A program made the translations under genes and the position numbers. A DNA stretch of 22,965 nucleotides from a virus (taxonomy: Duplodnaviria > Heunggongvirae > Uroviricota > Caudoviricetes), in the IMG/VR virus record IMGVR_UViG_3300024341_000001; one strand, 5' to 3'. Positions within the stretch are counted from its first letter, which is position 1; each line of letters begins with the position of its first letter. Of this stretch, positions 8,838 to 22,965 are shown one piece after another. Under the pieces are notes generated by a model. The model saw only the letters and a list, made by a program, of their open reading frames with translations. It did no database searches and was not told the DNA's origin.

Positions 8838-9075
8838 ATGGCAACATCTTACAAAATAGAAAATCATCGAATAACAATTGAAGGCAAAAAATTCCATACC
8901 AACGGAAATCCAGTAATTGGTGTCTATATTCAATTACTACGAGCAGATACACAAGAAATCATTGGTTATACCACAACAGATGAAGATGGTTACTGGAGTA
9001 TAACGAAAGACGAAAGTGAAATTCCATCCGGACGGTATCATATAAAATTTATTGGTAGCGGAATGATTCAAGCGA
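8838..9075 (+). other. N-terminal transthyretin / carboxypeptidase-regulatory-like (CarbopepD_reg-like) beta-sandwich domain of the giant ORF
   Basis: 'HRITIEGKKFHTNGNPVIGVYIQLLRADTQEIIGYTTTDEDGYWSI...GRYHIKFIGSG' follows the G-x-V-x-D...G.p..gA.V.l......tTd.dG.f.f..l..G.Y.l pattern typical of this fold. The fold is common at N-termini of phage fibre and spike proteins. Confidence 0.4.
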
Positions 9076-12000
9076 TGACACCAAATGGCGATTGGGAATG
9101 GATCGACATAATGGGGGATGATATGCTTGATCCTATACAACCAGCCGATATACAAGGATTGTTACGTGAAACTATTACTATTATTGATGATTCAACTGTA
9201 TTAGTAGAGTATGCTGTTGCTATAAATGCCACACGAGTATCCATATCAAATGTGGGTACTGCAACTGTATCTGGGCTTGAAATAACATTAATACAACAAC
9301 ATAAAAATCCAATTATTACAACGCCGGATTTTGACACCGCATACAACTTAACTGACTGGAATGCCACACCGGCCGATCCATGTAATCTTGCTGTTGGTGA
9401 AACTATTATATATGATCTTACAACATCATTGATAAGTGCTGCTTATAAAGTAAAGATCATTGGTGCACATGTTGGTAATTCTAATCTCAAAATAAAAATT
9501 ACAAGTCGTTTAGCGGCCGACGAAATCGATGCCGGACGTATTCGGGTCGAAAAAGGGATTAGCATCTCTGATGGTGGTGCTTCTGGTTTCATAATCGATA
9601 CTGCAAGTATCCGAGGAATTGATGAACTCGGTCAGACAGTGGTAGCGTTATATAATGATGGTCAAACTGTTGGAACATTGACAGATATCTATGCAAAGAT
9701 CGGCGGATGGGCAATTACCGAAACCAGCCTAGTACGCGAAGTTTCAGGAAGCAAGATAGAGGTGGTTGGTACAAATACTCCATACATAGGTGTTGGTAAC
9801 GGTGTCACCGAATATGCTAGAATGGGTTATCTATCTAGTGATGTAAATGGTATTTGGGCAACTGTTGGTGGATTTGGCGGCACATCGTATGATAACGCAA
9901 AAGTATTTATTAATAGCTCTGGACTATATATTAATGATGACTATAGCGCCCCCATAACATATATTACTGGTGATACTGATTGGCGTTCTATTGATACGAC
10001 AGTTGTAGAAAACGCTACCTTTGCTTCCAGCGCAGAAGGTTGGGATGTGACAAATGGCTTCTCTTGGATAACTAACTATATTAAAGCAACAGCGGGGTCT
10101 GGAAAATCAACTTATAAAAGTTTAGGGGCCGGAGTTGCAAATAAAACTTATACTTTAAGAATAGAACATAATTGCGCTAATGCTCCTTCAGATATTACTA
10201 TTCGCATTGCACATAGCGGAAGTTATACCGATTATACTGTAACCGTTCCTCCATATACAAATAGTACGTGGCAAAAAACTTTCACCACTACCACTAATGG
10301 TATAATTACTGTTACTATATCAGGCACAGTTGTGTATGAATATTATCTCTCAACAGTACGTCTGGAATATTCGTCGTCGTTTTCGGAGTTAAGCGCAGCA
10401 GGACTCTTCCTTGTAAACAATGCAAATTCATATATCAAATTCGGCAAGGGAATAGCAGAGATAAAAGGAAGTGGTTTTGAAGTAGAAGACTTAACCATCT
10501 ATGGTAATTTTAATCAGTATGGTACTTGGCATCAATATGGTTCAGTAGTTATTTCAGCTCCGATACAGGTCTTGAATTATAATGCCGCATTACCAAGTTA
10601 TGGTGGAATTGAAGTAGATAACACTAGCGGTGATAATCAATTACTAACATATTCATCTGGAGATTCAGCGTGGATAGTTGCAAAACGAACTGGAACTGGT
10701 GCAGGTGGGCAGACCGGAATAACTAAAAACGGAGTAATATTGCACGGTGGGGCAAGTTTCAATTATGAGACTGACGCGACATATGATATTGGAAGTATAA
10801 ACACCGGACGACCACGTGATGTACATATTGGAAGAGATATATACATTGCCGGAAATATATATTTAACTGGGGATATTGATGAAGTAGATATTTCAGTTCT
10901 TAAAGTAGCCGACAAGCAAATTTCAATGGCTGTTAGTACAAATCCAACCGATGCATTGGCAGACGGTGGTGGTATTATTTTGAAGGGCACTACTGATAAG
11001 ACTATCTTATGGGATCTGTCAAACACTAATTGGACATCAACTGAACACTGGAATCTCGCATCAGGCAAAACTTACAAAATAAATAATGTATCAGTAGTCG
11101 AAGGCGCGAATCCGGTATTATCATCTAGTTCACCGACTTTTGTTGCGTTAACATTAGGCACATCAGTAAAACTACCTACATTGTTTACAACGACTAAGCA
11201 CTATACAGGATTTCCAAATCGTGCTGATACAGCATTGTCATTTAATAATACAAACCGTCGTATGACTATTACAGGTACAAATTTTAAAGTTTATCTGAAC
11301 GGTTCTGAATATACATTAAATACATCATATGTAACAATTACAGATTCAACTAATTTTTACTGGATATATTATAGTTTAGTTGATAATGTACCCACATTAA
11401 CTGCAAGCAGTTCATATCCTGGTTTCGATCAATGCTTAGTAGCCGGTGTTTATTGGAATTCAACTACTGGTGTAGGAATACTTTCAGACGAACGTCACTG
11501 GATGGGGCGCGATCAATGGACGCATGAATACTTACATGAAACTGTAGGAACTCGTTATGCATCTGGTTTAGCAGGTACATTTGGTAATAGCAGTATTACG
11601 ATTGCTGCGGGAGAAATATATGATGAAGATATTGAACATGAAATTACGCAACAAACTTCATGTATGGTATTATATCACGATGGATCCTCAGCCTACAAGT
11701 CAATAGCAGGATCGGCCGTTCCTTATTATGAAGTAAGTAGTAATATTCAATATAATAATAGCACAACACTAACAGCTGTGCCGGCGAATAATTATGTGGC
11801 CTACTGGGTATTTGCGTCGAATAATACATCTTATCCTATTATGGTGTTGATGGGACAAAGAGTCGATGCTAATATAGCAAATGCACGCGCAAACAATGTT
11901 CCCGAAAATCTAATATACGATACATTACCGGTAGCAGAGATGAAATTATTGTATCGAATAATTTATCGTAATACTGGAAGCCCTCCAACGTATATCGAAG

Positions 12001-15000
12001 CGGCAGATTACCGCGCAGTTACTCCGTTGCCGACATCGAATTATATAGCTACAGATCACCACGCATTATCGAATTTAACAACAGGTGATGATCATACACA
12101 ATATTTGTATCTTGCCGGACGTGGTGGACAAACGATTTCAGACGCCTTAACACTAAGCAGCACATTAACATTGCCCAACTCGAATACATTAACCGGTAGT
12201 TCTGGATTAGTAGAATTTAGCGCTGGTGCCTCATTAACTGGTAATTTATATGTTAAGGGTGGTAATCTTTATACAGACACAGGGGTAAATTTAAACATCG
12301 CTCCTGGCGGAGATATAATACTTGATCCTACCGGAAATGATATTTTACCCGCAAGTAATTACGATTTAAATCTTGGTTCATTAAGTAAAAAATATCTTAC
12401 CTTACATGCCGCTGAACTTATAGTTGAGACATTAGTAGCACAAGATACATTAGCAACAATTGGCGGCCGCGTATTGGTAGGACCTACCACAGTACTAACG
12501 TCGGATTTGGCTGCAAGCGAATCTGCCACTACAATATATACAAAACATAATAATTTGGTTGTTGGTGATATTGTATATTTAGAAGCAAATGCAGTAATTG
12601 AATTTATGAAAATTGAATCCGGTCCATCAGGAGTAGGACCTTACACATACGTAGTGGATAGAAACATCGAAGAACATGCAGCTCATGCATGGTACGCCGG
12701 CGACGCAATATTTAATACTGGGGTCACAGGAGATGGTTTTATCGATTTATATTCGTTGCGTAGTGTTAAAAGTGCGGCACAATATGGACCTACGATCGTT
12801 GGAAATGTCCGTGATAATGATGTAACTTATAATGCTTGGACTGAACATTGGGCAATTGGTAATTTAAATGGCATATACGGTTATTCGTCAAACGTTTATG
12901 GCTTCGCTGCCGGTAAATACGCCAATTCATACTCATTTGTTACTGTAGATTCAACAAACGGTGTTCGACTGCTTTATCGTTCTGGTGGAAATGATTATAC
13001 TCGTATTTCATTAGCAACAAATGGTTCTGGATATTTGGCAAGTAGTAATATCGCATGGACATCTGCTGGAGTTATAACTGTCGGTGGCTGGACAATCAAT
13101 GCTAATACAATTGAAAATATTAGTTCTGGTACCGGTGTTATTATGAGTGTAGCTGATAGTCATCCTTATGTAATGGCCGAATACAGTTCTTCAGAGAAAG
13201 CACGTTTAGGATATTTAACAACTAACACATACGGACTATGGGGAACAGTAGGAGGATTTGGCGGTACAAGTTATGCTACAGCTAAAGTACTTATTGATAG
13301 TTATGGTTTGTATATAAACGATATTAATAGTATACCAATCACATATATGACTGGAAATACATCATGGCGCTCAATTACTTCCAGTGGATTAGATACTACT
13401 GATTTTGAATCTAGTGCAAATGGTTGGAGTACAAGTACTGGATTTGCTCGATCTACATCTAAAGCACATACCGGCACTTATAGTTTTTTGGGAACAGGTG
13501 CGTCTGAACGTGATTGGATGTGTTGGACCTCAAAAAATCTTGGTGCAGCCGTTCCAGGACATTCTACTTCAATTACACTTTGGTATTGGCCTATGGAAGG
13601 CACTGTAGGAGTATATGCAAATTATGATGATACTGAACATGAACTTTTAAATTATGATTCTGGTCAGGGCGGTCTTTATGACTGGTCTGAATTTGTAGCG
13701 ACTTTTACACCGCAAACTGATAGCGATATAACAATAACGATATCTGGTAATAATCAAGTAGGTTTGTATATAGATGATATCGAAATTAAATCGACTACAC
13801 CATTTTCTGAATTAAACGCTAAAGGATTATATGTAGTAAATAGTGAAAGTCAGTATTTAAAATTTGGGTCTGGTGTGGCGGAATTAAAAGGATTTACCGC
13901 CGAAATAGACTCACTGACCGTTTATAATTCATTTATTTCATATGGAACCTGGACTAATTATGGTACAGTTATCATTGCTAATCCATTTCAAGTAGTTAAT
14001 AATGACGCAGCAATTCCTAATTATGCTGGATTCGAAATCGATAGTGGAACCGGCGGAACAAATAGATTAATATACTGGGATACTACTAATACCAAATGGG
14101 CGTTAGGAACCAGAGCACATGTTGCTAAGGGCTCACAAACGGCTCCTACTTTAGGAGCAAACTTTAGTATAGGTACTGGTAGCTTTACAGTAGGTGCTAT
14201 AATGAGTAGTGGGAAACTCACTGTTACTACTTCAACAAGTCCAGGAATTGAAATTGTTAAAGACAACTCTGTTGATAATCGTTATCTGCGTTTTACTGCA
14301 TCAAACACAGATGGAAAGCAAGTAGATATAATAAATTCAGGGACATCTACATCAAGTCTAATTGGCTTTTATAATCATTCAAATAGCTATTGGTTAAGTT
14401 ATTGGGATATTACAACAGGTAATTTTTCTAATTTGGGCACAATACAGGGATCTGTATTAATTACACAAAATGCATCTAATCCGTACGTTTACTTCAATAA
14501 AACTGGTTCAACTGCCAGGTCGGCTTATATCGAAATAACAGGTGATACTTTTCGTCTGTATTATGAGGGGGCAGCAGCATTAAGTTTTGATACGTCACGC
14601 AATGCTACATTTGCATCAACAATTAATTCTGGTGCTATAACGAGTAGCGGTAATATTACAATTGATAAAGTTCCAATTAATATTAGTTATCCCACTCCCG
14701 GATTGACTTCGCAATGTGGATTGCATTTTGAGCCTACTAATGATGTCAGCTATTATGATTATTCACAAGGTATAACTTGGGGTATTCCGAATCCCAGTTA
14801 CGCTGACAAAACACATGCCGGTATATATGTGCAATCAAGTGGTACTTATGGTAGCAAGATGTATTTTGCCACATCGAATAATTGGGCTGTTGGTGCTATA
14901 GCTCACATGCAGATTAACCATTATGGTGAAGTATCAATTAGCAAGCAAGGTGTTTTTGCAAATGCCGGATATTCGAGTTTGAGTATATTTGATACGACTG

Positions 15001-18000
15001 AGGGGTCAAGTGCTAACAGATTAGTTGATATAACAAATGGCGTCGATATGAATTTTAATATTTATATTACCAATGCTGGTAAGACATTTAAGTACGCCGA
15101 ACTCGCCTCTTATTCAACTTTGCCATTAATATTAAATGCCACTTCTGGAGGTTCTATTATTCTTGGTGGTAATCTTGCCACTGACTATAATAGCAAATTG
15201 CAGATATATCAAAATTGGTTTGATACCAGTTCAAATCCTGAAGGTTGGGGTGGAGGAATTAAACTTGTAGGTGACGCGCCTACATTAGCATTCTGTGAAA
15301 CAGATCAGTCTAACGTTGGTTGGATGTGGCACGTAAGTGGTGATAAAATGAATCTTTACCGTCGTGCTGTTGGAGGTAGTTGGCAGCGACCATTTTATGT
15401 TCATGAAAGTATGCGGGCCTATTTTACAAGTATAGTTTCTACCGACGACTGGTTTTACGTTACGACTAATAAAACAGGATTATATAATGAAGTTCAAACT
15501 ACGCATTGGTATTGTGACGGTCTAAACTTTTGGAACATTTCTTCTGGAGGAAGTCCTACTTCTGGCGGTATTAGAATGAGGACGAATCACGATAGCACTA
15601 TTAAAGGATATTTATATTGGGATTCTTCTGGAATTGGTTTGTTAAACGATCAGAGTGGTTGGAGTGTCCGTTGTAATCAAGGCAGCGGTTATGGTGGGTA
15701 TCTTTTTGGTAGTTGGATAACGATAGGAGATCTAAGAACTTCGGGGGTCTTACTCCATCAAAGTAATATAAGAGTTCTAAATAAAGCCGAATCAGATTGG
15801 GTTACATGGGCTACAAGAAATACTTCTGGTTCTGAAACTGTTATTGATTTGAGCAATATCGGTAGTATTGAGTTTGTTTCTGGTACGCCTTCATTAAGTA
15901 AGCGTTTTTCTGGTTCTCAAGTTTTTAGCTATACAGAGGATTCCCAAATTCGCAAAGTTCTCCAGTTTACTAATCCAGATACAGGATACAAGTCTGGGGT
16001 TTTATTTGGAACAGTTACTTTAGTTTTTTCTGGAATGGAGACAGGTAATGCCAATCCTGTTTTTTTGGTTCGCAGATATACTGTAAGAGTAAGAGATTGG
16101 TATGCAGGTGGTGAATATAATATGACGGCGTATATTGCGTCGGATTATGAAGAAGGGGTATCTAATTCGATCACTTTAGATGTTGATACCGCTTCTTCAT
16201 CAACCTTAGTGATGAAGGTTAAGGTTTACCAGAATAATGGTTTATTTGATTCTGGGTCTAAATTAACAGTTTCATATGATTTTACAAGTACTGCTGTTCA
16301 TTTAGGTAATTTTATAACACCGAGTTTTGCTGATGGTACGACGACTACAGGCAATCCTTCTTCTCAGGGTGCTGTAGTTTTGGCTTCTTCAATTGGATCT
16401 GTGGTTGTTGGAGGGAATGATCCAACCATAAATGGATATTATACTTCACGATTTACAATTGTAGCAGGTTCGCAATCTACAGGATTGGGGGTAGCTTATA
16501 ATTCTTCTACCCCAGCATTCGCCCTTAATCCTCTAAGTAATTCTGCATGGACGCTATATGATTGGTATGGTAGCTCTTGGCACGCTGGAATAACCCAGCG
16601 CAATGGTTATATCGGTGTTGAAACAGCAACTCCATTTACATCTATAACATTACCAAGCGCTACAGATGGTAAATATGTGGCTTGGGATTATAAATCTGGA
16701 GCATCTGACTCAAGACGTTGGTGGTTAGGTAACGATCAATACGCTTATGGTGATTTCGCAATCAGGACAGAATCATCACAAGGATTAAGTGCGCCTGATT
16801 TAGTAAGATTGTTAATAGATAAAAATGGATTTGTAGGCATTCCAGTAATAGGTAATGGTAGATTATCTGTTCGTGGTACTGGAACAAGTTCGAGTACATA
16901 CAGTTTTGAAGCATCCAACTCAAGTGGAAGTACACGATTTCTTGTGCGCGATGATGTCTGGTCGGCATTTTACGGCTCTGATGATGCTTTAACATTAACG
17001 CTTGGAGCTGATCATGTAGCTACATTTGCTAATGCTGTAATAAGCAACGGAATGTACAATTCAACGACTTACACAGAAAGTTGGGAAGCGGGTAGCGATC
17101 CTGTCTGGCTAAAATTATTCACATTTGGAGGTGAATATGGTTATGCTACTGTTAAAGGATATATTAGTTCTACAGACAATGAGCAGCCTTTTGAAATAAA
17201 AGTAATGACAACATATTATACTCCTGATTCGTATTCTCCTATGTTGGAAATTGAGCATCATTCTTACAATCCTCGACTGTTGGCTGTGCGTTTGGAGGGA
17301 GTAAATGGAGGAGCAAAGTCTGTTTACGTTAAACTAAATCCAGTAACTTACGGAGTAAATATAAATTGGAGGTTATTAAATTGTTTTACAGTAAATCCAA
17401 CTATTAATAATTCCAAAACTACTCCCGTTGGTGAATATTATGTTGAGCATACAAGTTATGGCTATTCAGCTCACATTAGCAATAGTTCTTGGATGTTCAA
17501 GGAGAACATATATTTACAGCCAATTACCAATAAATATTTTGTTTTAAATCGTCCTGCAAACACAAACTATCTCGGACTATCTTATCGAACTAATGGAGCC
17601 GGAGAATGGTTTGTTGGTCAAAGAGAGCTTAGTAATAGTAATTTGTATATTTACAACGAAAGTGGTACAAATACAGTAATTTTTGATAAGACTACTAACG
17701 CTGTTACATTTGCAAATAACATTACTTTAACGAATGGTTATATAACAACCAATTATGATTATTATGGACTAATTGTAAATATTACTGCTGCTGGAAGTCA
17801 GACACCATTTAGGATAAAACGATCTGATTCAGTGGTTTGGGATGTTAATTTAATTGAGACAACAAATGATTTGGGGTTTTATTCGTATGGCGTTGGCTAT
17901 GCACTTAGATTAAATAAGAGTACGCTCGGTGTTGGTATAGGGTCAACACCATTATACATAACAGATTCTTATTTTGGTTATAGTGGTGCTTATCGAGTAT

Positions 18001-21000
18001 TGCAATTAGGCACTTGTGAAGCAACAAGAGCCGTTGCTATTGGAGTTAATTTAACTTCTTACACAAGCGGTCAATTTCAAGGTAATGAAATTGTTATACC
18101 AAATAATATATGTGTCATAGCACCTCAATCAAATACATCAGCAGCATTTATAGGAGTCTTAAAGCGTACAGACAGCTATTTGTATCTGGGCGGCGATAAT
18201 TATGCTTTAGCTAATTCAATCACGATTGACAATTCTGGGAATGTGGTAGTTCCAAGTAATCTTACTTTGTCCAATGGAAATGTGACTATTGCTACGGGTA
18301 AAGGATACATGCTTGGTGTTGGGACAAATACGTATATATCAAGAGAAACAAGTGGAGGGGCAAGATTTGCTGTTACAGTTGCCGGTGTTGAAGCACTACG
18401 TATTTTAGAAAGTGACGACTCTGCTACATTTGCTGGCAATGTAATAATGGCAAACGCAAAAGCTATCTATTCAACTACCTATTCTGTAAGTGATCCATAT
18501 ACTGGATATTATTTAACACAAGTTGGCTCTGTGTTTGGAAAACTAACTGTCAATGAGATGCATGCAAAATCATTTATTACTGATATTGAACAAGCATTAG
18601 TTGGTGGACAAATTATTTGTAAATCTGCTGCTAAATTATATCAAGATTTTGTATGTGGTACTGATACTTATTTGTATGTAGAAGAAATCACTGGCTATAC
18701 AGGTCAGGTTTTTGCTGACGGAGATTATGTTCGCATTAAGAATATTTCGATGGGCGCGTTTCATTTGGATATTACTGAAGCGTGGTTGACTGTAACATAT
18801 TATGATAGAGATACCACAAATAAATATCAGCGTTACACATATACAAAACAGTCTGGTACATCTACTACTTATACAAAAGGAACTATTGCTTTAGACTATG
18901 GAGTATCGGGGAACGGTATTTTAGAAAGATGTGCGCTGAATGAAGTAGGTAATCGTCCGTATGATCGCATAGCGACATGGACGACTGCTCCACAGACCGA
19001 TTTAATAACTCGTTCTCAAATTGGCGATTTAAGTGGAGTCAATACACTAACATATGGAGCATTAGCATCAAGCACGTTTGGAGTTTATACAAGAGATTTG
19101 TATGCGGAAGGTAATGCAAATATTGTTGGAACACTTGCTGTAGGTGGAGGTTCTACCATAGGTAATACTTTCTACGTTGGTAAGATACATACTAACTTAC
19201 TTACAGGTGTATCCGATGATTGTTTTTATGGGCGATCTGGTGGTGGTGTCGGTACAGATATTACTGGTAATGTAACTGCGCCAGATGGAAGTACAGTATT
19301 ATATCATAAATCTGATGATGCAACTGATTTATGGTATTATCTGAATTTGACCGGAGCGTTATCCAGTGGAACATACACTACATCGGTTTGGGTTTGGACT
19401 GATACAAACGGTACAGTTAATAGCGATATTTGGGGAGTGTTTGGAACTATCTACGCTGATACTTGGACACGATTAAGTGTTGTAAGAACAAGTTTTACTG
19501 GTTATCAGTCGGGGATGGACTGGGTATTGCGTCATAGTGGTGGAGCAACTAAGAAACTTGCCTTCTGGGGATTGCAAGTTGAAAGCGGTAGTATAACTAC
19601 TGTTTATCAAAAAACAGATGGAAGTAATACTGGGTCAGGTTACGGTATGTGGGCAATAGCAGGAGGATTTGGTGGAAGTATTCAAAATCCAACAATATCT
19701 CTATCTTCTGCTGGGATGAGAGTTCTTGATGCTGGAACATCAACAGCTATTGCAGCAGCAGGAACATACATTGGACGTTATACCGTTGATGGTTATCAAG
19801 CCGTTGTTATTAATTCATCCGGCATATCTGGATATACTGGTTCTGGAACAACAAAAAATTTCTATTTACCTACAAGTGGGACAGCAACAATTTCTGGATT
19901 TAGTTTTGATGCAAATAGAATGACATTAGGGTCTATTCTTCAAATAGGTAATTATCTTAGTGCCGGTATAGGAGAAGCTAATAACTCTGCCGGATTCGGA
20001 TTTTGGGATAATGGATCAAGACCAATTTTTTGGCTAAGAGGTTCTTCTGGCGTTCTGATGGAGATGGGCGTTATTGGAACTATAACCTATTTAGGATTTC
20101 ATGATGGATCAAGATGGAATTTACGTCTTGGTTCTCTTAAAGCTTTTGATTCTGGTAGTGATGTTGTTGGTTTTGAGCTATTAAATTCATCTGGAACATC
20201 TATAATGCGTGTTGATTCCGGTGGAACAGCTCATATTGCCAATTGGGGAATAAATCAATACGCTTTTTATAAAAATGCTGGTGATAGTCGAACACAATCT
20301 GTGGCACTTTATCAAGATGCTGGTGGCGCTGCTTTAACTATTGTTAACGGTGCTGCTTATTCAACAACAAGTGTTGCTCGAATAACGGTTGGTCGAATAT
20401 TAACAACAGCATGGGGTTGGTCTACCAAATTTGGTATAAATGCTTATGATGCTTCTGGAAATGAATTGTTTTTCTTAACTGCTGATGCCACTAATACAAG
20501 TCATATTGCCGGTTGGTCTTTCGACCCTACGGTTTTTGCTAAAGATTCCTTATCTGATGCAGTAGATGAAAAATACTGGCAAGGAACTGGAGTTCGTTTA
20601 GCTTCAAAAGCAGGTAGATTTGAAGATTATGCAGCGAGAGATTATACGGCGGGTTTGACAATAGGTAATCATAATGGCGGTTCTGATACTTTTAAATTAT
20701 TTGTTGGACGGGTAGCAGATGTTGATCCCGGAGGCACTTGGAGTGGGGTATCTAAATGGACGGCAACAGGAAATAATGTACGTTATGGGATTCAATTTGT
20801 TCAATGGAATCTTGGCAACTTATTTGAGATATCGTGTGATAAGAATGATAATAGTTCTTCATTTAGAGCGCATATTGCGGGCTGGCGATTTAATAATAAA
20901 GCTTTGTGGCATGATCACGGTCAAGATTATGTTTATATTCTCTCGGATGCGACCCAATTCAGCGGCGCTTATACTAAGCCTTCAATTATTATGCGTGGCG

Positions 21001-22965
21001 GTTCATCAGGTCCGTTTATTTGTATTGGAAATGTTTATCGTGAATCAAGTATGCGTGATGAATTTGGATTTACTTTAGCTGCCGACTATAATACAGCCCC
21101 AGTATTTGAAATGACAACTCGTCAGTATCAGATTGCCGGTTGGAATTTTACAGATTCTGCTTTATATAAAACATCAGGTGATAATTACTCTACATTATAT
21201 TCTATTGCTAACTCAGTAGCTTCATCGTTGTTTATGAGGAATACAAGTTCTAAGATAGGTGTTAATGTAGGGCTTCTGTATTATAGCAGTGATTGGCAGA
21301 ATGAATTTGGATTCTCATTATCTCCAGATTATACCAGCACTCCCTATGTTCAATTCTCTAAAAATTTATCTACAGGAGTACTCACGGCACGAATAGCGAG
21401 TTGGGTTATTGGTTCTGATGCTCTAACATACAATGACTCAAATAATGTATACTTGAATCTACTAGCCAATTCAACCAATCCTTCTATGTATGTAGGCAAG
21501 TATATAAATTCACAATGGATGTGGGCTTTTGTGGGCAGAAACTATTGGGGTTCTACACCTGATTGGAAAAATGGATATGGTTTCTGTGCATCTTGGGAGT
21601 CTGAGGCGTATCCAGTTTTTGCCGCAGCTAAAACCACCGGAAATGTAACAATGCCGTGGGGAACTATAGGAGCTAATAATACCTATTTTTATGTTGGTAA
21701 AGGTGATGGTTCTGTTTATATAGGTTATGATACTTCTAATAATGTGATGCGGTTAGTAGGCAGTTTTACTTCAACTGCAACAATTACTGGTGGAACAATT
21801 TCTGGTGGAACAATTTCTGGTGGAACTCTTAATGTTGGAGGTTTGTATGCATCTTCCACTGGACAAGGAGGAGACGTTTCAGTAACAGCAGAGAATGTTA
21901 CTTTTTTATTAAATGGTAGTAATACATGTCTAATGGTACTTTATGGTGGTGGTGATATAATATCTTATTCTGGAACAAGTCAAAATGCTAACTATTGTCT
22001 ATACTACATAGGAATTTATGCTGGCCCTTCTTTTAATAAAAAGGGAATAGGATTTGGTGAAGGTACTGGTGATCCTATCGACGTTTGGCTATATAGAGAT
22101 AGTGCAGCGGTATTAAAGACGGCAGCAGCATTTCAATGTGGAACAGTAAATGGACAAACTATTTCAAGTTCTGCCAGTTTTACTGGCACTTTAGCAGTAG
22201 CAAGCACTATTAACGGACAGACTATTTCAAGTTCTGCGAACTTTACAGGAACTATAACTTTACCCAATACTAATGTACTTACTGGAAACACAAATTCATT
22301 ATCCATTAGTAAAGGATTACATGTAGGAGGTACATCAGATGTAGCTGATAACAACTTACTTGTAGATGGGAATATCTATGTAGGTGCTTCTGATGTTTAC
22401 TTTGAAAAATATACAGCCACTTATAATGGCCTAAAGATTTACACATATAATGGTCTGGCTATGACTATTGATCCATCAGCAAATGTTACTATTGCCAACT
22501 CCCTAACTGCCGGTGCAGCTACCCTTGCTGGCACACTCAACATTACTTATAACGGAAACAGTAGTTTAATTATTTCTCGTTCGGGCGGTTCTACACTCAA
22601 TATCTATAGCGGTGGTTCTTCTTCGCATCAATGGGACATTTACACAAGTGGTACAGGATTACGATTCAGTGATAACACAGGTGGAGGTAATGTAAGAATA
22701 GATGGTGGAGTAGATATTTATGGAGCAATAACGAGTAGTAGCACATTCACACTTCCAAATACCAACGTATTCACAGGTAACGCCAACTCCGTGTCCATCT
22801 CTAAAGGTTTACACGTTGGAGGTGCAAGTGATGTTGCAGACAACAACTTACTTGTAGATGGGAATATCTATGTAGGTGCTTCTGATGTTTACTTTGAAAA
22901 ATATACAGCCACTTATAATGGCCTAAAGATTTACACATATAATGGTCTGGCTATGACTATTGATC
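8838..22965 (+). CDS. Giant tail-fibre / adhesin-like protein, 3'-incomplete. At least 4709 codons (14.1 kb) lie inside the window and the ORF continues past the window end.
   Basis: ATG 8838 is preceded by AAGAGG (8827-8832) with a 5-nt spacer. I translated frame 0 by hand over most of 8838-11100, 12000-13450, 14200-17100 and 18480-22965 and found no stop. The track shows no frame-0 + ORF in this interval, which is consistent with one ORF lacking a stop in the window. No minus-strand ORF exceeds 101 aa anywhere in 9.4-23 kb. The product is beta-rich (T/S/G/N/Y), repeat-built, and contains lectin-like domains and phage-fibre motifs (see findings). Confidence 0.85.
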   Translation, partial: MATSYKIENHRITIEGKKFHTNGNPVIGVYIQLLRADTQEIIGYTTTDEDGYWSITKDESEIPSGRYHIKFIGSGMIQAMTPNGDWEWIDIMGDDMLDPIQPADIQGLLRETITIIDDSTVLVEYAVAINATRVSISNVGTATVSGLEITLIQQHKNPIITTPDFDTAYNLTDWNATPADPCNLAVGETIIYDLTTSLISAAYKVKIIGAHVGNSNLKIKITSRLAADEIDAGRIRVEKGISISDGGASGFIIDTASIRGIDELGQTVVALYNDGQTVGTLTDIYAKIGGWAITETSLVREVSGSKIEVVGTNTPYIGVGNGVTEYARMGYLSSDVNGIWATVGGFGGTSYDNAKVFINSSGLYINDDYSAPITYITGDTDWRSIDTTVVENATFASSAEGWDVTNGFSWITNYIKATAGSGKSTYKSLGAGVANKTYTLRIEHNCANAPSDITIRIAHSGSYTDYTVTVPPYTNSTWQKTFTTTTNGIITVTISGTVVYEYYLSTVRLEYSSSFSELSAAGLFLVNNANSYIKFGKGIAEIKGSGFEVEDLTIYGNFNQYGTWHQYGSVVISAPIQVLNYNAALPSYGGIEVDNTSGDNQLLTYSSGDSAWIVAKRTGTGAGGQTGITKNGVILHGGASFNYETDATYDIGSINTGRPRDVHIGRDIYIAGNIYLTGDIDEVDISVLKVADKQISMAVSTNPTDALADGGGIILKGTTDKTILWDLSNTNWTSTEHWNLASGKTYKINNVSVVEGANPVLSSSSPTFVALTLGTSVKLPTLFTTTKHYTGFPNRADTALSFNNTNRRMTITGTNFKVYLNGSEYTLNTSYVTITDSTNFYWIYYSLVDNVPTLTASSSYPGFDQCLVAGVYWNSTTGVGILSDERHWMGRDQWTHEYLHETVGTRYASGLAGTFGNSSITIAAGEIYDEDIEHEITQQTSCMVLYHDGSSAYKSIAGSAVPYYEVSSNIQYNNSTTLTAVPANNYVAYWVFASNNTSYPIMVLMGQRVDANIANARANNVPENLIYDTLPVAEMKLLYRIIYRNTGSPPTYIEAADYRAVTPLPTSNYIATDHHALSNLTTGDDHTQYLYLAGRGGQTISDALTLSSTLTLPNSNTLTGSSGLVEFSAGASLTGNLYVKGGNLYTDTGVNLNIAPGGDIILDPTGNDILPASNYDLNLGSLSKKYLTLHAAELIVETLVAQDTLATIGGRVLVGPTTVLTSDLAASESATTIYTKHNNLVVGDIVYLEANAVIEFMKIESGPSGVGPYTYVVDRNIEEHAAHAWYAGDAIFNTGVTGDGFIDLYSLRSVKSAAQYGPTIVGNVRDNDVTYNAWTEHWAIGNLNGIYGYSSNVYGFAAGKYANSYSFVTVDSTNGVRLLYRSGGNDYTRISLATNGSGYLASSNIAWTSAGVITVGGWTINANTIENISSGTGVIMSVADSHPYVMAEYSSSEKARLGYLTTNTYGLWGTVGGFGGTSYATAKVLIDSYGLYINDINSIPITYMTGNTSWRSITSSGLDTTDFESSANGWSTSTGFARSTSKAHTGTYSFLGTGASERDWMCWTSKNLGAAVPGHSTSITLWYWPMEGTVGVYANYDDTEHELLNYDSGQGGLYDWSEFVATFTPQTDSDITITISGNNQVGLYIDDIEIKSTTPFSELNAKGLYVVNSESQYLKFGSGVAELKGFTAEIDSLTVYNSFISYGTWTNYGTVIIANPFQVVNNDAAIPNYAGFEIDSGTGGTNRLIYWDTTNTKWALGTRAHVAKGSQTAPTLGANFSIGTGSFTVGAIMSSGKLTVTTSTSPGIEIVKDNSVDNRYLRFTASNTDGKQVDIINSGTSTSSLIGFYNHSNSYWLSYWDITTGNFSNLGTIQGSVLITQNASNPYVYFNKTGSTARSAYIEITGDTFRLYYEGAAALSFDTSRNATFASTINSGAITSSGNITIDKVPINISYPTPGLTSQCGLHFEPTNDVSYYDYSQGITWGIPNPSYADKTHAGIYVQSSGTYGSKMYFATSNNWAVGAIAHMQINHYGEVSISKQGVFANAGYSSLSIFDTTEGSSANRLVDITNGVDMNFNIYITNAGKTFKYAELASYSTLPLILNATSGGSIILGGNLATDYNSKLQIYQNWFDTSSNPEGWGGGIKLVGDAPTLAFCETDQSNVGWMWHVSGDKMNLYRRAVGGSWQRPFYVHESMRAYFTSIVSTDDWFYVTTNKTGLYNEVQTTHWYCDGLNFWNISSGGSPTSGGIRMRTNHDSTIKGYLYWDSSGIGLLNDQSGWSVRCNQGSGYGGYLFGSWITIGDLRTSGVLLHQSNIRVLNKAESDWVTWATRNTSGSETVIDLSNIGSIEFVSGTPSLSKRFSGSQVFSYTEDSQIRKVLQFTNPDTGYKSGVLFGTVTLVFSGMETGNANPVFLVRRYTVRVRDWYAGGEYNMTAYIASDYEEGVSNSITLDVDTASSSTLVMKVKVYQNNGLFDSGSKLTVSYDFTSTAVHLGNFITPSFADGTTTTGNPSSQGAVVLASSIGSVVVGGNDPTINGYYTSRFTIVAGSQSTGLGVAYNSSTPAFALNPLSNSAWTLYDWYGSSWHAGITQRNGYIGVETATPFTSITLPSATDGKYVAWDYKSGASDSRRWWLGNDQYAYGDFAIRTESSQGLSAPDLVRLLIDKNGFVGIPVIGNGRLSVRGTGTSSSTYSFEASNSSGSTRFLVRDDVWSAFYGSDDALTLTLGADHVATFANAVISNGMYNSTTYTESWEAGSDPVWLKLFTFGGEYGYATVKGYISSTDNEQPFEIKVMTTYYTPDSYSPMLEIEHHSYNPRLLAVRLEGVNGGAKSVYVKLNPVTYGVNINWRLLNCFTVNPTINNSKTTPVGEYYVEHTSYGYSAHISNSSWMFKENIYLQPITNKYFVLNRPANTNYLGLSYRTNGAGEWFVGQRELSNSNLYIYNESGTNTVIFDKTTNAVTFANNITLTNGYITTNYDYYGLIVNITAAGSQTPFRIKRSDSVVWDVNLIETTNDLGFYSYGVGYALRLNKSTLGVGIGSTPLYITDSYFGYSGAYRVLQLGTCEATRAVAIGVNLTSYTSGQFQGNEIVIPNNICVIAPQSNTSAAFIGVLKRTDSYLYLGGDNYALANSITIDNSGNVVVPSNLTLSNGNVTIATGKGYMLGVGTNTYISRETSGGARFAVTVAGVEALRILESDDSATFAGNVIMANAKAIYSTTYSVSDPYTGYYLTQVGSVFGKLTVNEMHAKSFITDIEQALVGGQIICKSAAKLYQDFVCGTDTYLYVEEITGYTGQVFADGDYVRIKNISMGAFHLDITEAWLTVTYYDRDTTNKYQRYTYTKQSGTSTTYTKGTIALDYGVSGNGILERCALNEVGNRPYDRIATWTTAPQTDLITRSQIGDLSGVNTLTYGALASSTFGVYTRDLYAEGNANIVGTLAVGGGSTIGNTFYVGKIHTNLLTGVSDDCFYGRSGGGVGTDITGNVTAPDGSTVLYHKSDDATDLWYYLNLTGALSSGTYTTSVWVWTDTNGTVNSDIWGVFGTIYADTWTRLSVVRTSFTGYQSGMDWVLRHSGGATKKLAFWGLQVESGSITTVYQKTDGSNTGSGYGMWAIAGGFGGSIQNPTISLSSAGMRVLDAGTSTAIAAAGTYIGRYTVDGYQAVVINSSGISGYTGSGTTKNFYLPTSGTATISGFSFDANRMTLGSILQIGNYLSAGIGEANNSAGFGFWDNGSRPIFWLRGSSGVLMEMGVIGTITYLGFHDGSRWNLRLGSLKAFDSGSDVVGFELLNSSGTSIMRVDSGGTAHIANWGINQYAFYKNAGDSRTQSVALYQDAGGAALTIVNGAAYSTTSVARITVGRILTTAWGWSTKFGINAYDASGNELFFLTADATNTSHIAGWSFDPTVFAKDSLSDAVDEKYWQGTGVRLASKAGRFEDYAARDYTAGLTIGNHNGGSDTFKLFVGRVADVDPGGTWSGVSKWTATGNNVRYGIQFVQWNLGNLFEISCDKNDNSSSFRAHIAGWRFNNKALWHDHGQDYVYILSDATQFSGAYTKPSIIMRGGSSGPFICIGNVYRESSMRDEFGFTLAADYNTAPVFEMTTRQYQIAGWNFTDSALYKTSGDNYSTLYSIANSVASSLFMRNTSSKIGVNVGLLYYSSDWQNEFGFSLSPDYTSTPYVQFSKNLSTGVLTARIASWVIGSDALTYNDSNNVYLNLLANSTNPSMYVGKYINSQWMWAFVGRNYWGSTPDWKNGYGFCASWESEAYPVFAAAKTTGNVTMPWGTIGANNTYFYVGKGDGSVYIGYDTSNNVMRLVGSFTSTATITGGTISGGTISGGTLNVGGLYASSTGQGGDVSVTAENVTFLLNGSNTCLMVLYGGGDIISYSGTSQNANYCLYYIGIYAGPSFNKKGIGFGEGTGDPIDVWLYRDSAAVLKTAAAFQCGTVNGQTISSSASFTGTLAVASTINGQTISSSANFTGTITLPNTNVLTGNTNSLSISKGLHVGGTSDVADNNLLVDGNIYVGASDVYFEKYTATYNGLKIYTYNGLAMTIDPSANVTIANSLTAGAATLAGTLNITYNGNSSLIISRSGGSTLNIYSGGSSSHQWDIYTSGTGLRFSDNTGGGNVRIDGGVDIYGAITSSSTFTLPNTNVFTGNANSVSISKGLHVGGASDVADNNLLVDGNIYVGASDVYFEKYTATYNGLKIYTYNGLAMTID
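9600..10720 (+). repeat. Segmental duplication, copy A. It is a ~370-aa protein module homologous to 13000-14140.
   Basis: A: '...MGYLSSDVNGIWATVGGFGGTSYDNAKVFINSSGLYINDDYSAPITYITGDTDWRSI...' aligns with B: '...LGYLTTNTYGLWGTVGGFGGTSYATAKVLIDSYGLYINDINSIPITYMTGNTSWRSI...'. A: 'FSELSAAGLFLVNNANSYIKFGKGIAEIKGSGFEVEDLTIYGNFNQYGTW' aligns with B: 'FSELNAKGLYVVNSESQYLKFGSGVAELKGFTAEIDSLTVYNSFISYGTW'. Roughly 50-60% aa identity, DNA clearly diverged. Confidence 0.7.
10005..10372 (+). other. CBM4/9-like beta-sandwich domain, copy A in the giant ORF
   Basis: 'VENATFASSAEGWDVTNGFSWITNYIKATAGSGKSTYKSLGAG...TVVYEYYLSTVRLEY'. Confidence 0.4.
13000..14140 (+). repeat. Segmental duplication, copy B (see 9600-10720)
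   Basis: As above. The offset is about 3.38 kb (about 1127 aa). Confidence 0.7.
13396..13790 (+). other. CBM4/9-like beta-sandwich domain, copy B in the giant ORF
   Basis: 'TDFESSANGWSTSTGFARSTSKAHTGTYSFLGTGAS...NNQVGLYIDDIEIKS' has the classic CBM_4_9 layout (F-E-s...GW....G........a.tG.ys........v.hyhDDh.h). Confidence 0.45.
19230..19600 (+). other. Third lectin / CBM-like (or Laminin-G/ConA-like) beta-sandwich domain in the giant ORF
   Basis: 'GTYTTSVWVWTDTNGTVNSDIWGVFGTIYADTWTRLSVVRTSFTG...KKLAFWGLQVESGS'. Confidence 0.3.
20500..21440 (+). repeat. Degenerate in-frame tandem repeats, about 4 units of 86-123 aa, anchored by an 'EFGF(T/S)L..DY...P...IAGW.F..ALY' motif
   Basis: The anchors are 'HIAGWSFDPTVFAKDS' (~20504), 'HIAGWRFNNKALWHD' (~20873), 'QIAGWNFTDSALYKTS' (~21131) and 'RIASWVIGSDALTYNDS' (~21393). 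'RDEFGFTLAADYNTAPVFEM' (~21055) pairs with 'QNEFGFSLSPDYTSTPYVQF' (~21298), and this pair is also recognisably similar at DNA level. Confidence 0.6.
21789..21827 (+). repeat. 15-bp perfect tandem repeat, 2.6 copies, (ggtggaacaatttct)n, encoding (GGTIS)n
   Basis: Read directly: ggtggaacaatttct ggtggaacaatttct ggtggaact. The translation is TGGTISGGTISGGTL. Confidence 0.85.
22149..22274 (+). repeat. 63-bp (21-aa) in-frame tandem repeat, 2 copies ('NGQTISSSA(S/N)FTGT...')
   Basis: aatggacaaactatttcaagttctgccagttttactggcact at 22149 pairs with aacggacagactatttcaagttctgcgaactttacaggaact at 22212. It is also mirrored in the spurious antisense ORF 22133-22354, which shows the repeat 'AKVPVKLAELEIVCP' twice. 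Confidence 0.8.
22308..22965 (+). repeat. 492-bp (164-aa) in-frame tandem repeat, 1.34 copies visible. The last 123 bp of each copy (22351-22473 and 22843-22965) are 100% identical, while the flanking parts of the unit are diverged. The repeat runs off the window end.
   Basis: The sequence 'acaacttacttgtagatgggaatatctatgtaggtgcttctgatgtttactttgaaaaatatacagccacttataatggcctaaagatttacacatataatggtctggctatgactattgatc' occurs at 22351 and again at 22843, reaching the last base of the window. The upstream 90 bp of the two copies differ at many synonymous third positions (e.g. tta/ctt, ccc/cca, act/acc, gga/ggt, tta/gtg). Confidence 0.9.

What the first reader, a model, noticed from the sequence alone, without database searches (positions are those of the whole stretch)
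22308..22965. 492-bp tandem repeat whose last 123 bp are 100% identical between copies, where the rest of the unit is diverged; the repeat runs off the window edge
Within one repeat unit the identity jumps abruptly. The 5' part of the unit is diverged, with many synonymous third-position differences (about 70% identity by eye). The 3' part, from 'acaacttacttgtagatggg...', is a perfect match through to the final base of the window. A sharp boundary like this is the signature of a recent gene-conversion or unequal-crossover tract inside a coding tandem array. Alternatively the array is longer in reality and partly collapsed by short-read assembly.

Either way the C-terminal region of the giant fibre is likely a variable-copy-number repeat array encoding 'SKGLHVGG.SDVADNNLLVDGNIYVGASDVYFEKYTATYNGLKIYTYNGLAMTID'. 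That is a plausible mechanism for fibre-length or host-range variation. The window ends inside the identical block, so the number of further copies is unknown.
Basis: seen in the sequence. Interest (0 to 1): 0.6.

Follow-up and report, generated by a model that had tools for sequence, protein, structure and literature searches.

The report
Exact repeat ending giant phage fibre
Near the far end of a phage tail-fibre gene of more than 4,700 codons, a 124-base stretch recurs letter for letter 492 bases later; it is a real, recent recombination scar that starts inside a widespread fibre "joint" motif and stops short-read assemblies, but nothing yet shows a variable-copy array.

Summary
The sequence pattern is real. 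Window 22350-22473 equals 22842-22965 exactly (124 nt, to the last base). The 90 nt before each copy are only 69% identical, and most differences are synonymous.

It is not a demonstrated 492-bp tandem array. Only 211 of 492 nt are seen twice, and there is no 492 periodicity upstream.

The "diverged 5' part" is two old copies of a widespread fibre motif (LPN..TGN.NS.SISKGLHVGG.SDVADNNLLVDG). These two copies differ from each other as much as from copies in unrelated phages, where unrelated sequence follows the motif. The switch to 100% identity falls inside this motif.

Two other assemblies of the same phage stop where a repeat starting at 22350 predicts: a k=31 contig at 22379 and a k=141 contig at 22490. 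So the repeat is real, the identical tract is probably at least 141 nt, and the window most likely ends there because of the repeat.

My best reading is a recent, motif-guided, in-register recombination, probably a 492-nt (164-codon) tandem duplication. This is ordinary mosaic evolution of a tail fibre. Copy-number variation and effects on host range remain untested. I could not obtain sequence beyond the window. Interest is low to moderate.

The parts
8838..22965 (+). Giant fibre-like structural ORF (starts MATSYKIENH). It is open at the window end, so more than 4,709 codons are seen.
   Evidence: Translation has no stop. It sits downstream of a baseplate-wedge homologue (phrog_6). Structural-protein PHROG hits fall at residues 659-814. 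The N-terminal 617 aa are 38-45% identical to 760-1075-aa proteins at the same position in related large phage contigs.
22260..22370 (+). Motif copy M1: LPNTNVLTGNTNSLSISKGLHVGGTSDVADNNLLVDG
   Evidence: Regex and alignment. The same 37-aa motif occurs in L012, P0002/L019 and P0003, each followed by different sequence.
22752..22862 (+). Motif copy M2: LPNTNVFTGNANSVSISKGLHVGGASDVADNNLLVDG
   Evidence: Its 5' 90 nt are 68.9% identical to M1 and 73-76% identical to the motif in other phages. Its F/A/V/A variant residues are shared with P0003.
22350..22473 (+). Exact block, copy 1 (NNLLVDGNIYVGASDVYFEKYTATYNGLKIYTYNGLAMTID). Its left edge lies inside motif M1, between SDVAD and NNLLVDG.
   Evidence: The Logan k=31 contig ends at 22379 and the MEGAHIT k=141 contig at 22490, as expected if the first shared k-mer starts at 22350.
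22842..22965 (+). Exact block, copy 2, cut by the end of the window
22474..22751 (+). Module between the two copies (PSANVTIANSL...SRSGGSTLNIYSGGSSSHQWDIYTSGTGLRFSDNTGGGNVRIDGG...). It is seen once.
   Evidence: Homologous modules (..THQWDIYLNSTNLRIGDNTGGG..) occur in many distant fibre-like proteins, and twice in P0005.
22149..22272 (+). Two 63-nt (21-aa) repeats, NGQTISSSA.FTGT.., directly upstream of M1
   Evidence: family D3, 75% identity. The same 21-aa repeat occurs three times in P0001 and also in P0005 and P0011.

Best explanation
The distal part of a giant phage fibre gene carries two old copies, 492 nt apart, of a conserved 37-residue joint motif.

A recent recombination event joined the 5' part of the downstream copy (M2), in register, to the 3' part of the upstream copy (M1). 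The joint lies between codons SDVAD and NNLLVDG. Everything to the right of that joint is therefore a fresh, still error-free copy of what follows M1.

The simplest single event is an unequal, motif-guided crossover between M1 and M2 on two genome copies. That would give a tandem duplication of the 492-nt (164-codon) segment 22350-22841. It predicts that the identity continues for 492 nt beyond 22841, followed by the original 3' part of M2 and the ancestral distal end of the fibre.

Because the exact tract is longer than assembler k-mers and probably longer than reads, de Bruijn assemblers stop at it. That is why the window ends 124 nt into copy 2.

Shown: the repeat, the position of the joint inside the motif, the age of the two motif copies, and the break points of other assemblies.
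Inferred: the type of event (duplication rather than conversion) and the extent of the tract.
For: 1. The sharp switch from 69% to 100% identity falls inside the motif.
2. M1 and M2 are as diverged from each other as from the motif in unrelated phage contigs L012 and L019. In those contigs similarity stops at ..VDG and unrelated C-terminal domains follow. So the motif is a module boundary in the gene pool.
3. The 19-aa core GLHVGG.SD..DNNLLVDG is present in 23 of 58 distant relatives, 19 of them with 2-3 copies, and different sequence follows each copy.
4. The repeat is real in other data sets of the same phage (99.99-100% identical over the shared parts):
   - Logan contig SRR7617176_40687 (k=31) is 20,394 nt and starts at window 1986. 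It therefore ends at 22379, so its last 31-mer is 22349-22379, the last one not wholly inside the block. Its cut fibre product of 4,514 aa fits exactly. Logan contigs hold every 31-mer only once (PMC12424806).
   - ENA ERZ27250193 k141_197835 (214,504 nt) ends at window 22490. Its last 141-mer is 22350-22490 and its cut product is 4,551 aa. This implies at least 141 shared nt.
5. No complete fibre protein of this phage is in the 5.8-billion-protein collection, only a nonsense-truncated 664-aa form. Yet 13-17 contigs carry the neighbouring genes, 7-8 of them longer than 200 kb.
6. The fibre has grown by module duplication before: residues about 288-617 and 1415-1760 are 38% identical (E = 3e-73).
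7. Conserved motifs acting as recombination hot spots in tail-fibre adhesin genes are established for T-even phages (Tetart et al. 1998, Trojet et al. 2011, as cited in PMC12032242).
Against: - The sequence beyond 22965 was never seen, so the tract length (492 nt predicted) and the number of copies are unknown.
- Duplication versus conversion cannot be told apart from the window.
- The contig end positions in the other assemblies are computed from contig lengths and product lengths. They were not read directly, because loci were fetched only up to window 18828 or 14931.
- If k=141 coverage was very low, the MEGAHIT end at 22490 could be a roughly 1-in-27 coincidence.
- The samples carry nearly the same strain, so they are independent assemblies but not independent evolutionary lineages.
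- The protein collection may exclude cut or very long proteins for technical reasons. Cut products are indeed absent.
Confidence: 0.45

Rival explanations
1. Gene-conversion or module-replacement patch. The two motif copies were each followed by related but different modules. A conversion tract of 141 nt or more, but much less than 492 nt, copied the sequence after M1 over the sequence after M2. There are just two dispersed copies and no duplication of the whole 492-nt segment.
For: The sharp left boundary lies inside a conserved motif. Serial related modules are common in such fibres, for example twice in P0005. All assembly break points fit this equally well.
Against: It needs two joints instead of one. 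The left flank is only 69% identical, which is a poor substrate for homologous conversion. There is no evidence that the ancestral module after M2 resembled the one after M1.
Confidence: 0.22
2. The fibre ends in a homogenised tandem array of three or more 164-residue units. Copy number varies between genomes and tunes fibre length or host range. Short-read assembly has collapsed the array.
For: The repeat is in frame and exact. Every assembly I could reach stops at it. The k=141 break implies at least 141 identical nt. Perfect tandem repeats recombine readily (general knowledge).
Against: Only 1.43 periods are seen, and there is no upstream periodicity at DNA or protein level. No read depth, junction counts or alternative contigs are available. 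No relative with such an array was found in IMG/VR, JGI metagenomes or GTDB genomes.
Confidence: 0.15
3. Assembly artefact. The last 124 nt were appended by a wrong walk through the assembly graph, and the real second copy is diverged throughout.
For: The identical tract runs exactly to the contig end. Its length of 124 looks like an assembler k value; by my own recollection this is the maximum k of IDBA-UD, which I did not verify.
Against: A k=31 contig from another sample and a k=141 contig from a third stop exactly where a second predecessor of the k-mer starting at 22350 predicts. The path 22350-22965 is unbranched in this contig, so any molecule carrying the 22841|22842 junction also carries the upstream copy.
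Confidence: 0.07
4. Identity is maintained by a nucleotide-level function, such as the template and variable repeat of a diversity-generating retroelement, an RNA element or a recombinase site.
For: The tract length is in the range of DGR repeats, and fibres are typical DGR targets. A relative (L024) encodes a reverse transcriptase elsewhere in its genome.
Against: There are zero mismatches rather than adenine-specific ones, and no A-only-mismatch repeat pair in window 16000 to the end. Both copies are in frame in one ORF. The RNA fold z-score is only -1.25 and there is no Rfam hit. No reverse transcriptase is encoded in the window.
Confidence: 0.02

Closest known systems
Mosaic distal tail-fibre and adhesin genes of T-even phages (gp37/gp38). 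Recombination between conserved motifs (His boxes, glycine-rich motifs) swaps variable segments. Sources: Tetart et al. 1998 and Trojet et al. 2011, as cited in PMC12032242.
   Same: A short conserved motif punctuates variable segments of a fibre gene. The motif is shared between otherwise unrelated fibres. The recombination joint lies inside the motif, in register.
   Different: There is no sequence homology to gp37 or gp38 (no Pfam, PHROG or PDB hit on the distal part). Here the partners are two motif copies within one gene, and the result is a duplicated module rather than a swapped adhesin. Recombination was inferred, not observed.
Uncharacterised fibre-like proteins built around repeated GLHVGG.SDPGDNNLLVDG motifs, found in metagenomes (P0009, P0017, P0018, P0028, P0032, P0045 and others)
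   Same: They share the 19-aa core, usually have 2-3 copies per protein, and carry variable segments after ..VDG. P0028 even continues ..VDGTIYVGG.., like ..VDGNIYVGA.. here.
   Different: Those copies are diverged from one another. None shows an exact nucleotide-level duplicate, and none belongs to a protein of more than 4,700 aa.
Variable-number tandem repeats in phage receptor-binding genes, for example the collagen-like repeats flanking the host-range region of Streptococcus thermophilus phages (Duplessis and Moineau 2001; own knowledge, not checked here)
   Same: In-frame repeats in a fibre gene that can recombine.
   Different: Those are short units in many copies with documented length polymorphism. 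Here there is one long unit seen 1.43 times, with no polymorphism data.
Diversity-generating retroelement TR/VR pairs
   Same: Direct repeats of about 100-150 nt associated with the distal end of a fibre gene.
   Different: There are no adenine-specific differences, both copies are coding and in frame in the same ORF, and no reverse transcriptase is in view.

Membership tests
Tandem repeat array (VNTR) in a coding region | At least two complete head-to-tail units | tested here: inconclusive
   1.43 periods are visible and the window ends in copy 2. TRF reports no array with this period. Only 211 of 492 nt are seen twice.
Tandem repeat array (VNTR) in a coding region | Periodicity extends over neighbouring sequence (further units, even if diverged) | tested here: not met
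   Offset-492 identity upstream of 22250 is 20-43%. BLASTP of the upstream 221 aa against the unit gives E = 0.1. The core motif occurs only twice in 4,709 aa.
Tandem repeat array (VNTR) in a coding region | Copy number differs between genomes or samples | not testable with these tools
   No reads are available, and no contig crossing the region could be fetched.
Motif-guided mosaic recombination in tail-fibre genes (T-even gp37/gp38 paradigm) | A conserved motif shared by different phages and flanked by unrelated sequence | tested here: met
   L012, L019/P0002 and P0003 carry the 37-aa motif followed by three different continuations. The 19-aa core is in 23 of 58 distant hits.
Motif-guided mosaic recombination in tail-fibre genes (T-even gp37/gp38 paradigm) | An abrupt change of nucleotide identity located inside the motif | tested here: met
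   Identity is 68.9% over the 5' 90 nt of the motif, then 100% from its last 21 nt onwards.
Motif-guided mosaic recombination in tail-fibre genes (T-even gp37/gp38 paradigm) | The gene encodes a tail fibre or receptor-binding protein | tested here: inconclusive
   Context and weak homologies support this: baseplate wedge phrog_6 upstream, structural PHROGs, and relatives with tail-fibre or tailspike PHROG hits. The distal part itself has no Pfam or PDB match, and the AF2 model is unusable (pLDDT 45.5).
Diversity-generating retroelement (TR/VR) | Repeat copies differ at adenines of the template | tested here: not met
   There are 0 differences in 124 nt and no A-only-mismatch repeat pairs in window 16000 to the end.
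Diversity-generating retroelement (TR/VR) | A reverse transcriptase gene next to the template repeat | not testable with these tools
   The ORF list and family scans of the window show nothing suggesting one. The sequence downstream of 22965 is unavailable.
Assembly artefact or chimeric contig end | The repeat junction is absent from independent data sets | tested here: not met
   Contigs from two other samples and assemblers end at 22379 (k=31) and 22490 (k=141), exactly as a real second copy starting at 22350 predicts.

The most novel reading that the evidence does not exclude
The distal end of this fibre of more than 4,700 residues is a perfectly homogenised tandem array of 164-residue modules. 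Copy number varies within the phage population, giving a built-in, recombination-driven way to vary fibre length or reach. That would explain why no short-read assembly closes the gene.
Probability: 0.12. Interest if true: 0.55.

Novelty: new member of a known kind. Interest (0 to 1): 0.25.

Why it matters
- Practical: the gene model of this giant fibre is truncated, and the roughly 215-kb phage assembly is unresolved exactly here. Any annotation of the fibre's receptor-binding tip from short-read contigs will be missing or wrong.
- Biological: this is a clean, datable example of how very large fibre genes grow. A widespread 37-residue joint motif guides an in-register duplication of a whole module. 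It is the youngest event in a protein that also holds an older 350-residue duplication.
- If copy number turned out to vary, it would be a simple mechanism of fibre-length variation. Nothing here shows that yet.

Tried and rejected
1. Getting sequence beyond 22965 failed by every route:
   - An exact 46-mer of the block in IMG/VR gave 0 hits.
   - Protein-pattern scans with the last 234 aa gave no relative in IMG/VR and none in GTDB genomes. JGI metagenomes gave only an unrelated contig sharing the motif (L012).
   - Megablast and tblastn against GenBank phages found nothing.
   - Cut fibre products are not in the protein collection.
   - Homology searches with the last 599 aa and the first 800 aa returned no full-length fibre.
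   - I tried a synteny route. I took the conserved 616-aa head-module protein downstream of the fibre in relative L021, which has a weak portal PHROG hit, hoping to find this phage's orthologue near the start of the 214.5-kb contig. The 120 listed hits did not include a protein from that contig. The closest large contig, L024 (215,066 nt), is a different phage, about 67-77% nt identical in the matched segments, with only a 95-aa gene where the giant fibre sits.
2. Several contigs longer than 200 kb that carry the neighbouring genes are collapsed as 'similar places'. Apart from ERZ27250193 they were never shown.
3. AlphaFold2 on the last 275 aa without an alignment gave mean pLDDT 45.5 and pTM 0.21, which is unusable, so I ran no fold search.
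4. Pfam, PHROGs and PDB gave no hits on the distal 1,100 aa.
5. An RNA element is rejected: fold z-score -1.25 and no Rfam hit.
6. A DGR is rejected for the part in view. No DGR-like repeats lie near the reverse transcriptase of relative L024 either.
7. A third, diverged unit upstream is rejected (E = 0.1).
8. I tried to infer the window's assembler from the 124-nt tail and from window position 1 mapping to position 192,015 of the MEGAHIT contig. This was suggestive but internally inconsistent (k = 124 from one end, 127 from the other), so I did not use it.

Full report
**1. The observation**

The window contains one long exact repeat. Positions 22350-22473 equal 22842-22965, which is 124 nt running to the last base of the window. 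The only other exact repeat of 20 nt or more is 25 nt inside a small 15-nt tandem.

The repeat-finder extends the pair to 211 nt (22263-22473 vs 22755-22965) at 88% identity with spacing 492. Codon by codon, the stretch 22257-22349 has 19 codons with only synonymous differences, 4 with amino-acid changes and 8 identical. From 22350 on there are no differences at all. At about 72% identity, 124 consecutive matches have probability about 2e-18.

A 492-bp tandem repeat is not established:
- Only 1.43 periods are visible, and 22474-22754 is seen once.
- Tandem Repeats Finder finds no array with this period.
- Upstream of about 22250, identity at offset 492 is at random level.
- The upstream 221 residues are not significantly similar to the unit (E = 0.1).

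**2. Setting**

The repeat lies in an ORF that starts at 8838 (MATSYKIENH) and is still open at 22965, at least 4,709 codons.

- Upstream genes include a baseplate-wedge homologue (phrog_6).
- Residues 659-814 of the ORF hit structural-protein PHROGs.
- Its first 617 residues are 38-45% identical to proteins of 760-1075 aa. These sit at the same place, after the same run of genes, in related large phage contigs L020, L021 and L022.
- Relative L024, a 215,066-nt contig, has only a 95-aa gene there.

So this is an expanded, mosaic fibre-like virion protein. It already contains an old internal duplication: residues about 288-617 and 1415-1760 are 38% identical (E = 3e-73).

**3. What the 'diverged part' is**

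The 37 residues LPN.N..TGN.NS.SISKGLH.GG.SDV.DN.L.VDG occur twice in the window, at 22260-22370 (M1) and 22752-22862 (M2). The same motif is found in three other places:
- a JGI contig (L012);
- a 697-aa protein in a different phage context with a lysozyme downstream (P0002/L019);
- the fragment P0003.

In each case a different, unrelated sequence follows ..VDG.

At the DNA level, the 5' 90 nt of M1 and M2 are 68.9% identical to each other. They are 69-76% identical to L012 and L019, and those two are 79% identical to each other. M1 and M2 are therefore old, independent copies of a conserved joint, not the decayed head of a young tandem unit.

The 19-residue core GLHVGG.SD..DNNLLVDG is widespread. 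It is in 23 of the 58 distant relatives found by an exhaustive HMMER search, and 19 of these have two or three copies. Different sequence follows each copy.

The segment between the two copies here (..SRSGGSTLNIYSGGSSSHQWDIYTSGTGLRFSDNTGGG..) is likewise a common fibre module, present twice in P0005.

The switch to 100% identity falls inside the motif, between SDVAD and NNLLVDG.

**4. Is the repeat real or an assembly product?**

The same phage was found in other public assemblies. The parts I could compare are 99.99-100% identical. Contig L006 is 99.91% identical, and its differences look like errors.

- **Logan contig SRR7617176_40687.** It is 20,394 nt and begins at window 1986, so it ends at 22379. 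Its cut fibre product of 4,514 aa fits exactly. Logan contigs are built at k=31 and hold each 31-mer once (PMC12424806). Position 22379 is the end of the 31-mer starting at 22349, the last one not wholly inside the block.
- **MEGAHIT contig ERZ27250193 k141_197835.** It is 214,504 nt and ends at window 22490, with a cut product of 4,551 aa. Its terminal 141-mer is exactly 22350-22490.

Both ends are what a de Bruijn graph gives if the k-mer starting at 22350 has a second predecessor. The k=141 case also requires that the two copies stay identical for at least 141 nt, that is, beyond the end of the window.

These positions are computed from contig and product lengths. The loci themselves were fetched only to window 18828 and 14931.

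Within the present contig the path from 22350 to 22965 is unbranched. Any molecule carrying the 22841|22842 junction therefore also carries the upstream copy.

No full-length fibre protein of this phage exists in the 5.8-billion-protein collection, only a 664-aa nonsense-truncated form. Yet 13-17 contigs carry the neighbouring genes, 7-8 of them longer than 200 kb.

I conclude that the repeat is real, that its 124-nt visible length is a lower bound, and that the window ends there because assemblers stop at the repeat.

**5. Mechanism**

The joint reconstitutes an intact motif in register, from the 5' part of M2 and the 3' part of M1. I think the most likely cause is a single unequal, motif-guided crossover between M1 and M2 on two genome copies. 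This would produce a tandem duplication of 22350-22841 (492 nt, 164 codons). It needs one joint only. It predicts that identity runs for 492 nt past 22841 and is then followed by the original 3' part of M2 and the ancestral fibre tip.

A conversion patch of limited length is the main rival. It needs two joints, and the left flank offers only 69% identity.

An RNA element or a DGR is rejected for the part in view: fold z-score -1.25, no Rfam hit, no adenine-specific mismatch repeats, and both copies in frame.

**6. Comparison with what is known**

This works like the motif-guided mosaicism described for T-even distal fibre and adhesin genes, where conserved motifs act as recombination hot spots between variable segments (Tetart 1998 and Trojet 2011, cited in PMC12032242). 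There is no sequence homology to those proteins. Here the exchange is between two motif copies in one gene and duplicates a module. It is a new instance of a known kind of event.

**7. Limits**

I could not obtain any sequence beyond 22965. The following gave nothing that crosses the repeat:
- IMG/VR, JGI metagenomes, GTDB genomes and GenBank phages;
- a synteny route through a conserved downstream gene of relative L021.

A single-sequence AlphaFold2 model of the last 275 residues was unusable (pLDDT 45.5).

Read mapping, the start of the 214.5-kb MEGAHIT contig, or long reads would settle the tract length and copy number.

**Verdict**

The recombination reading is supported. Copy-number and host-range claims are untested. 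The feature is ordinary for tail-fibre genes, and interest is 0.25.

Noticed in passing
window 8838-22965: A single ORF of more than 4,709 codons sits after the baseplate genes. Related large phage contigs have 760-1075-aa proteins at this position (L020, L021, L022), and one has only a 95-aa gene (L024). L022 splits homologous modules over several genes (760 + 55 + 1489 + 487 or more aa). The giant ORF therefore looks like a fusion and expansion of fibre modules.
   Followed up: partly
window 9699-10688 vs 13080-14117 (fibre residues about 288-617 vs 1415-1760): An old internal duplication of a module of about 350 residues, 38% identical (E = 3e-73). The N-terminal domains of relatives match both places.
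   Followed up: yes
window 21779-21826: A 15-nt tandem repeat of 3.2 copies (AACAATTTCTGGTGG) encoding GGTISGGTISGGT, 96% matches. It is a possible slippage-prone tract inside the fibre ORF.
   Followed up: no
L006 (ENA ERZ27250200 k141_534757), window-equivalent 9556-11135: This assembly of the same phage has 10 differences from the window, mostly G>T, C>A and G>A. They include two nonsense codons in the fibre (codons 665 and 742) near its contig end, which yield the 664-aa 'fibre' P0059. They look like low-coverage or damage errors rather than a real truncated allele.
   Followed up: partly
window 16957: T>G (fibre V2707G) is shared by two Logan samples (SRR7617176, SRR7617220). It is the only difference from the window in about 16 kb, so the population is nearly clonal across samples.
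   Followed up: no
window position 1: Window position 1 corresponds to position 192,015 of the 214,504-nt MEGAHIT contig, that is 192,000 + 15. If windows are tiles of a round size, the source contig would be about 214,965 nt and would start about 14 nt after the MEGAHIT contig. Both assemblies would then break at the same two places, as expected for a circular genome of about 215 kb broken only at this repeat. This is speculative.
   Followed up: partly
L022 / P0060, P0085: The closest named relatives of the fibre N-terminus and of the conserved 616-aa protein are annotated in NCBI as from a 'Candidatus Paceibacterota bacterium' MAG (locus tags WC666_03265 and WC666_04195). This is either a binning artefact or a hint at the host lineage of this phage group.
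   Followed up: no
L024 14618-17071 (-) and 19343-20254 (-): The related 215-kb contig (NCBI GCA_043956695.1) encodes an 817-aa protein with MVP_shoulder/Vault_3 hits and a 303-aa RVT_1 reverse transcriptase. I found no DGR-like repeats in the fetched region.
   Followed up: partly
P0078, P0082, P0083, P0089 and others (family of L021 18293-20143): The conserved 616-aa head-module protein (weak portal PHROG hit) forms a large family of 489 hits. Several members are about 1,000 aa with LAGLIDADG_3 (PF14528) insertions, which suggests inteins or homing endonucleases.
   Followed up: no
L005 5530-6240 (upstream of the window in the same phage): A 236-aa protein with a weak Sigma70_r3 hit lies three genes upstream of the baseplate-wedge gene and is conserved in relative L022.
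   Followed up: no
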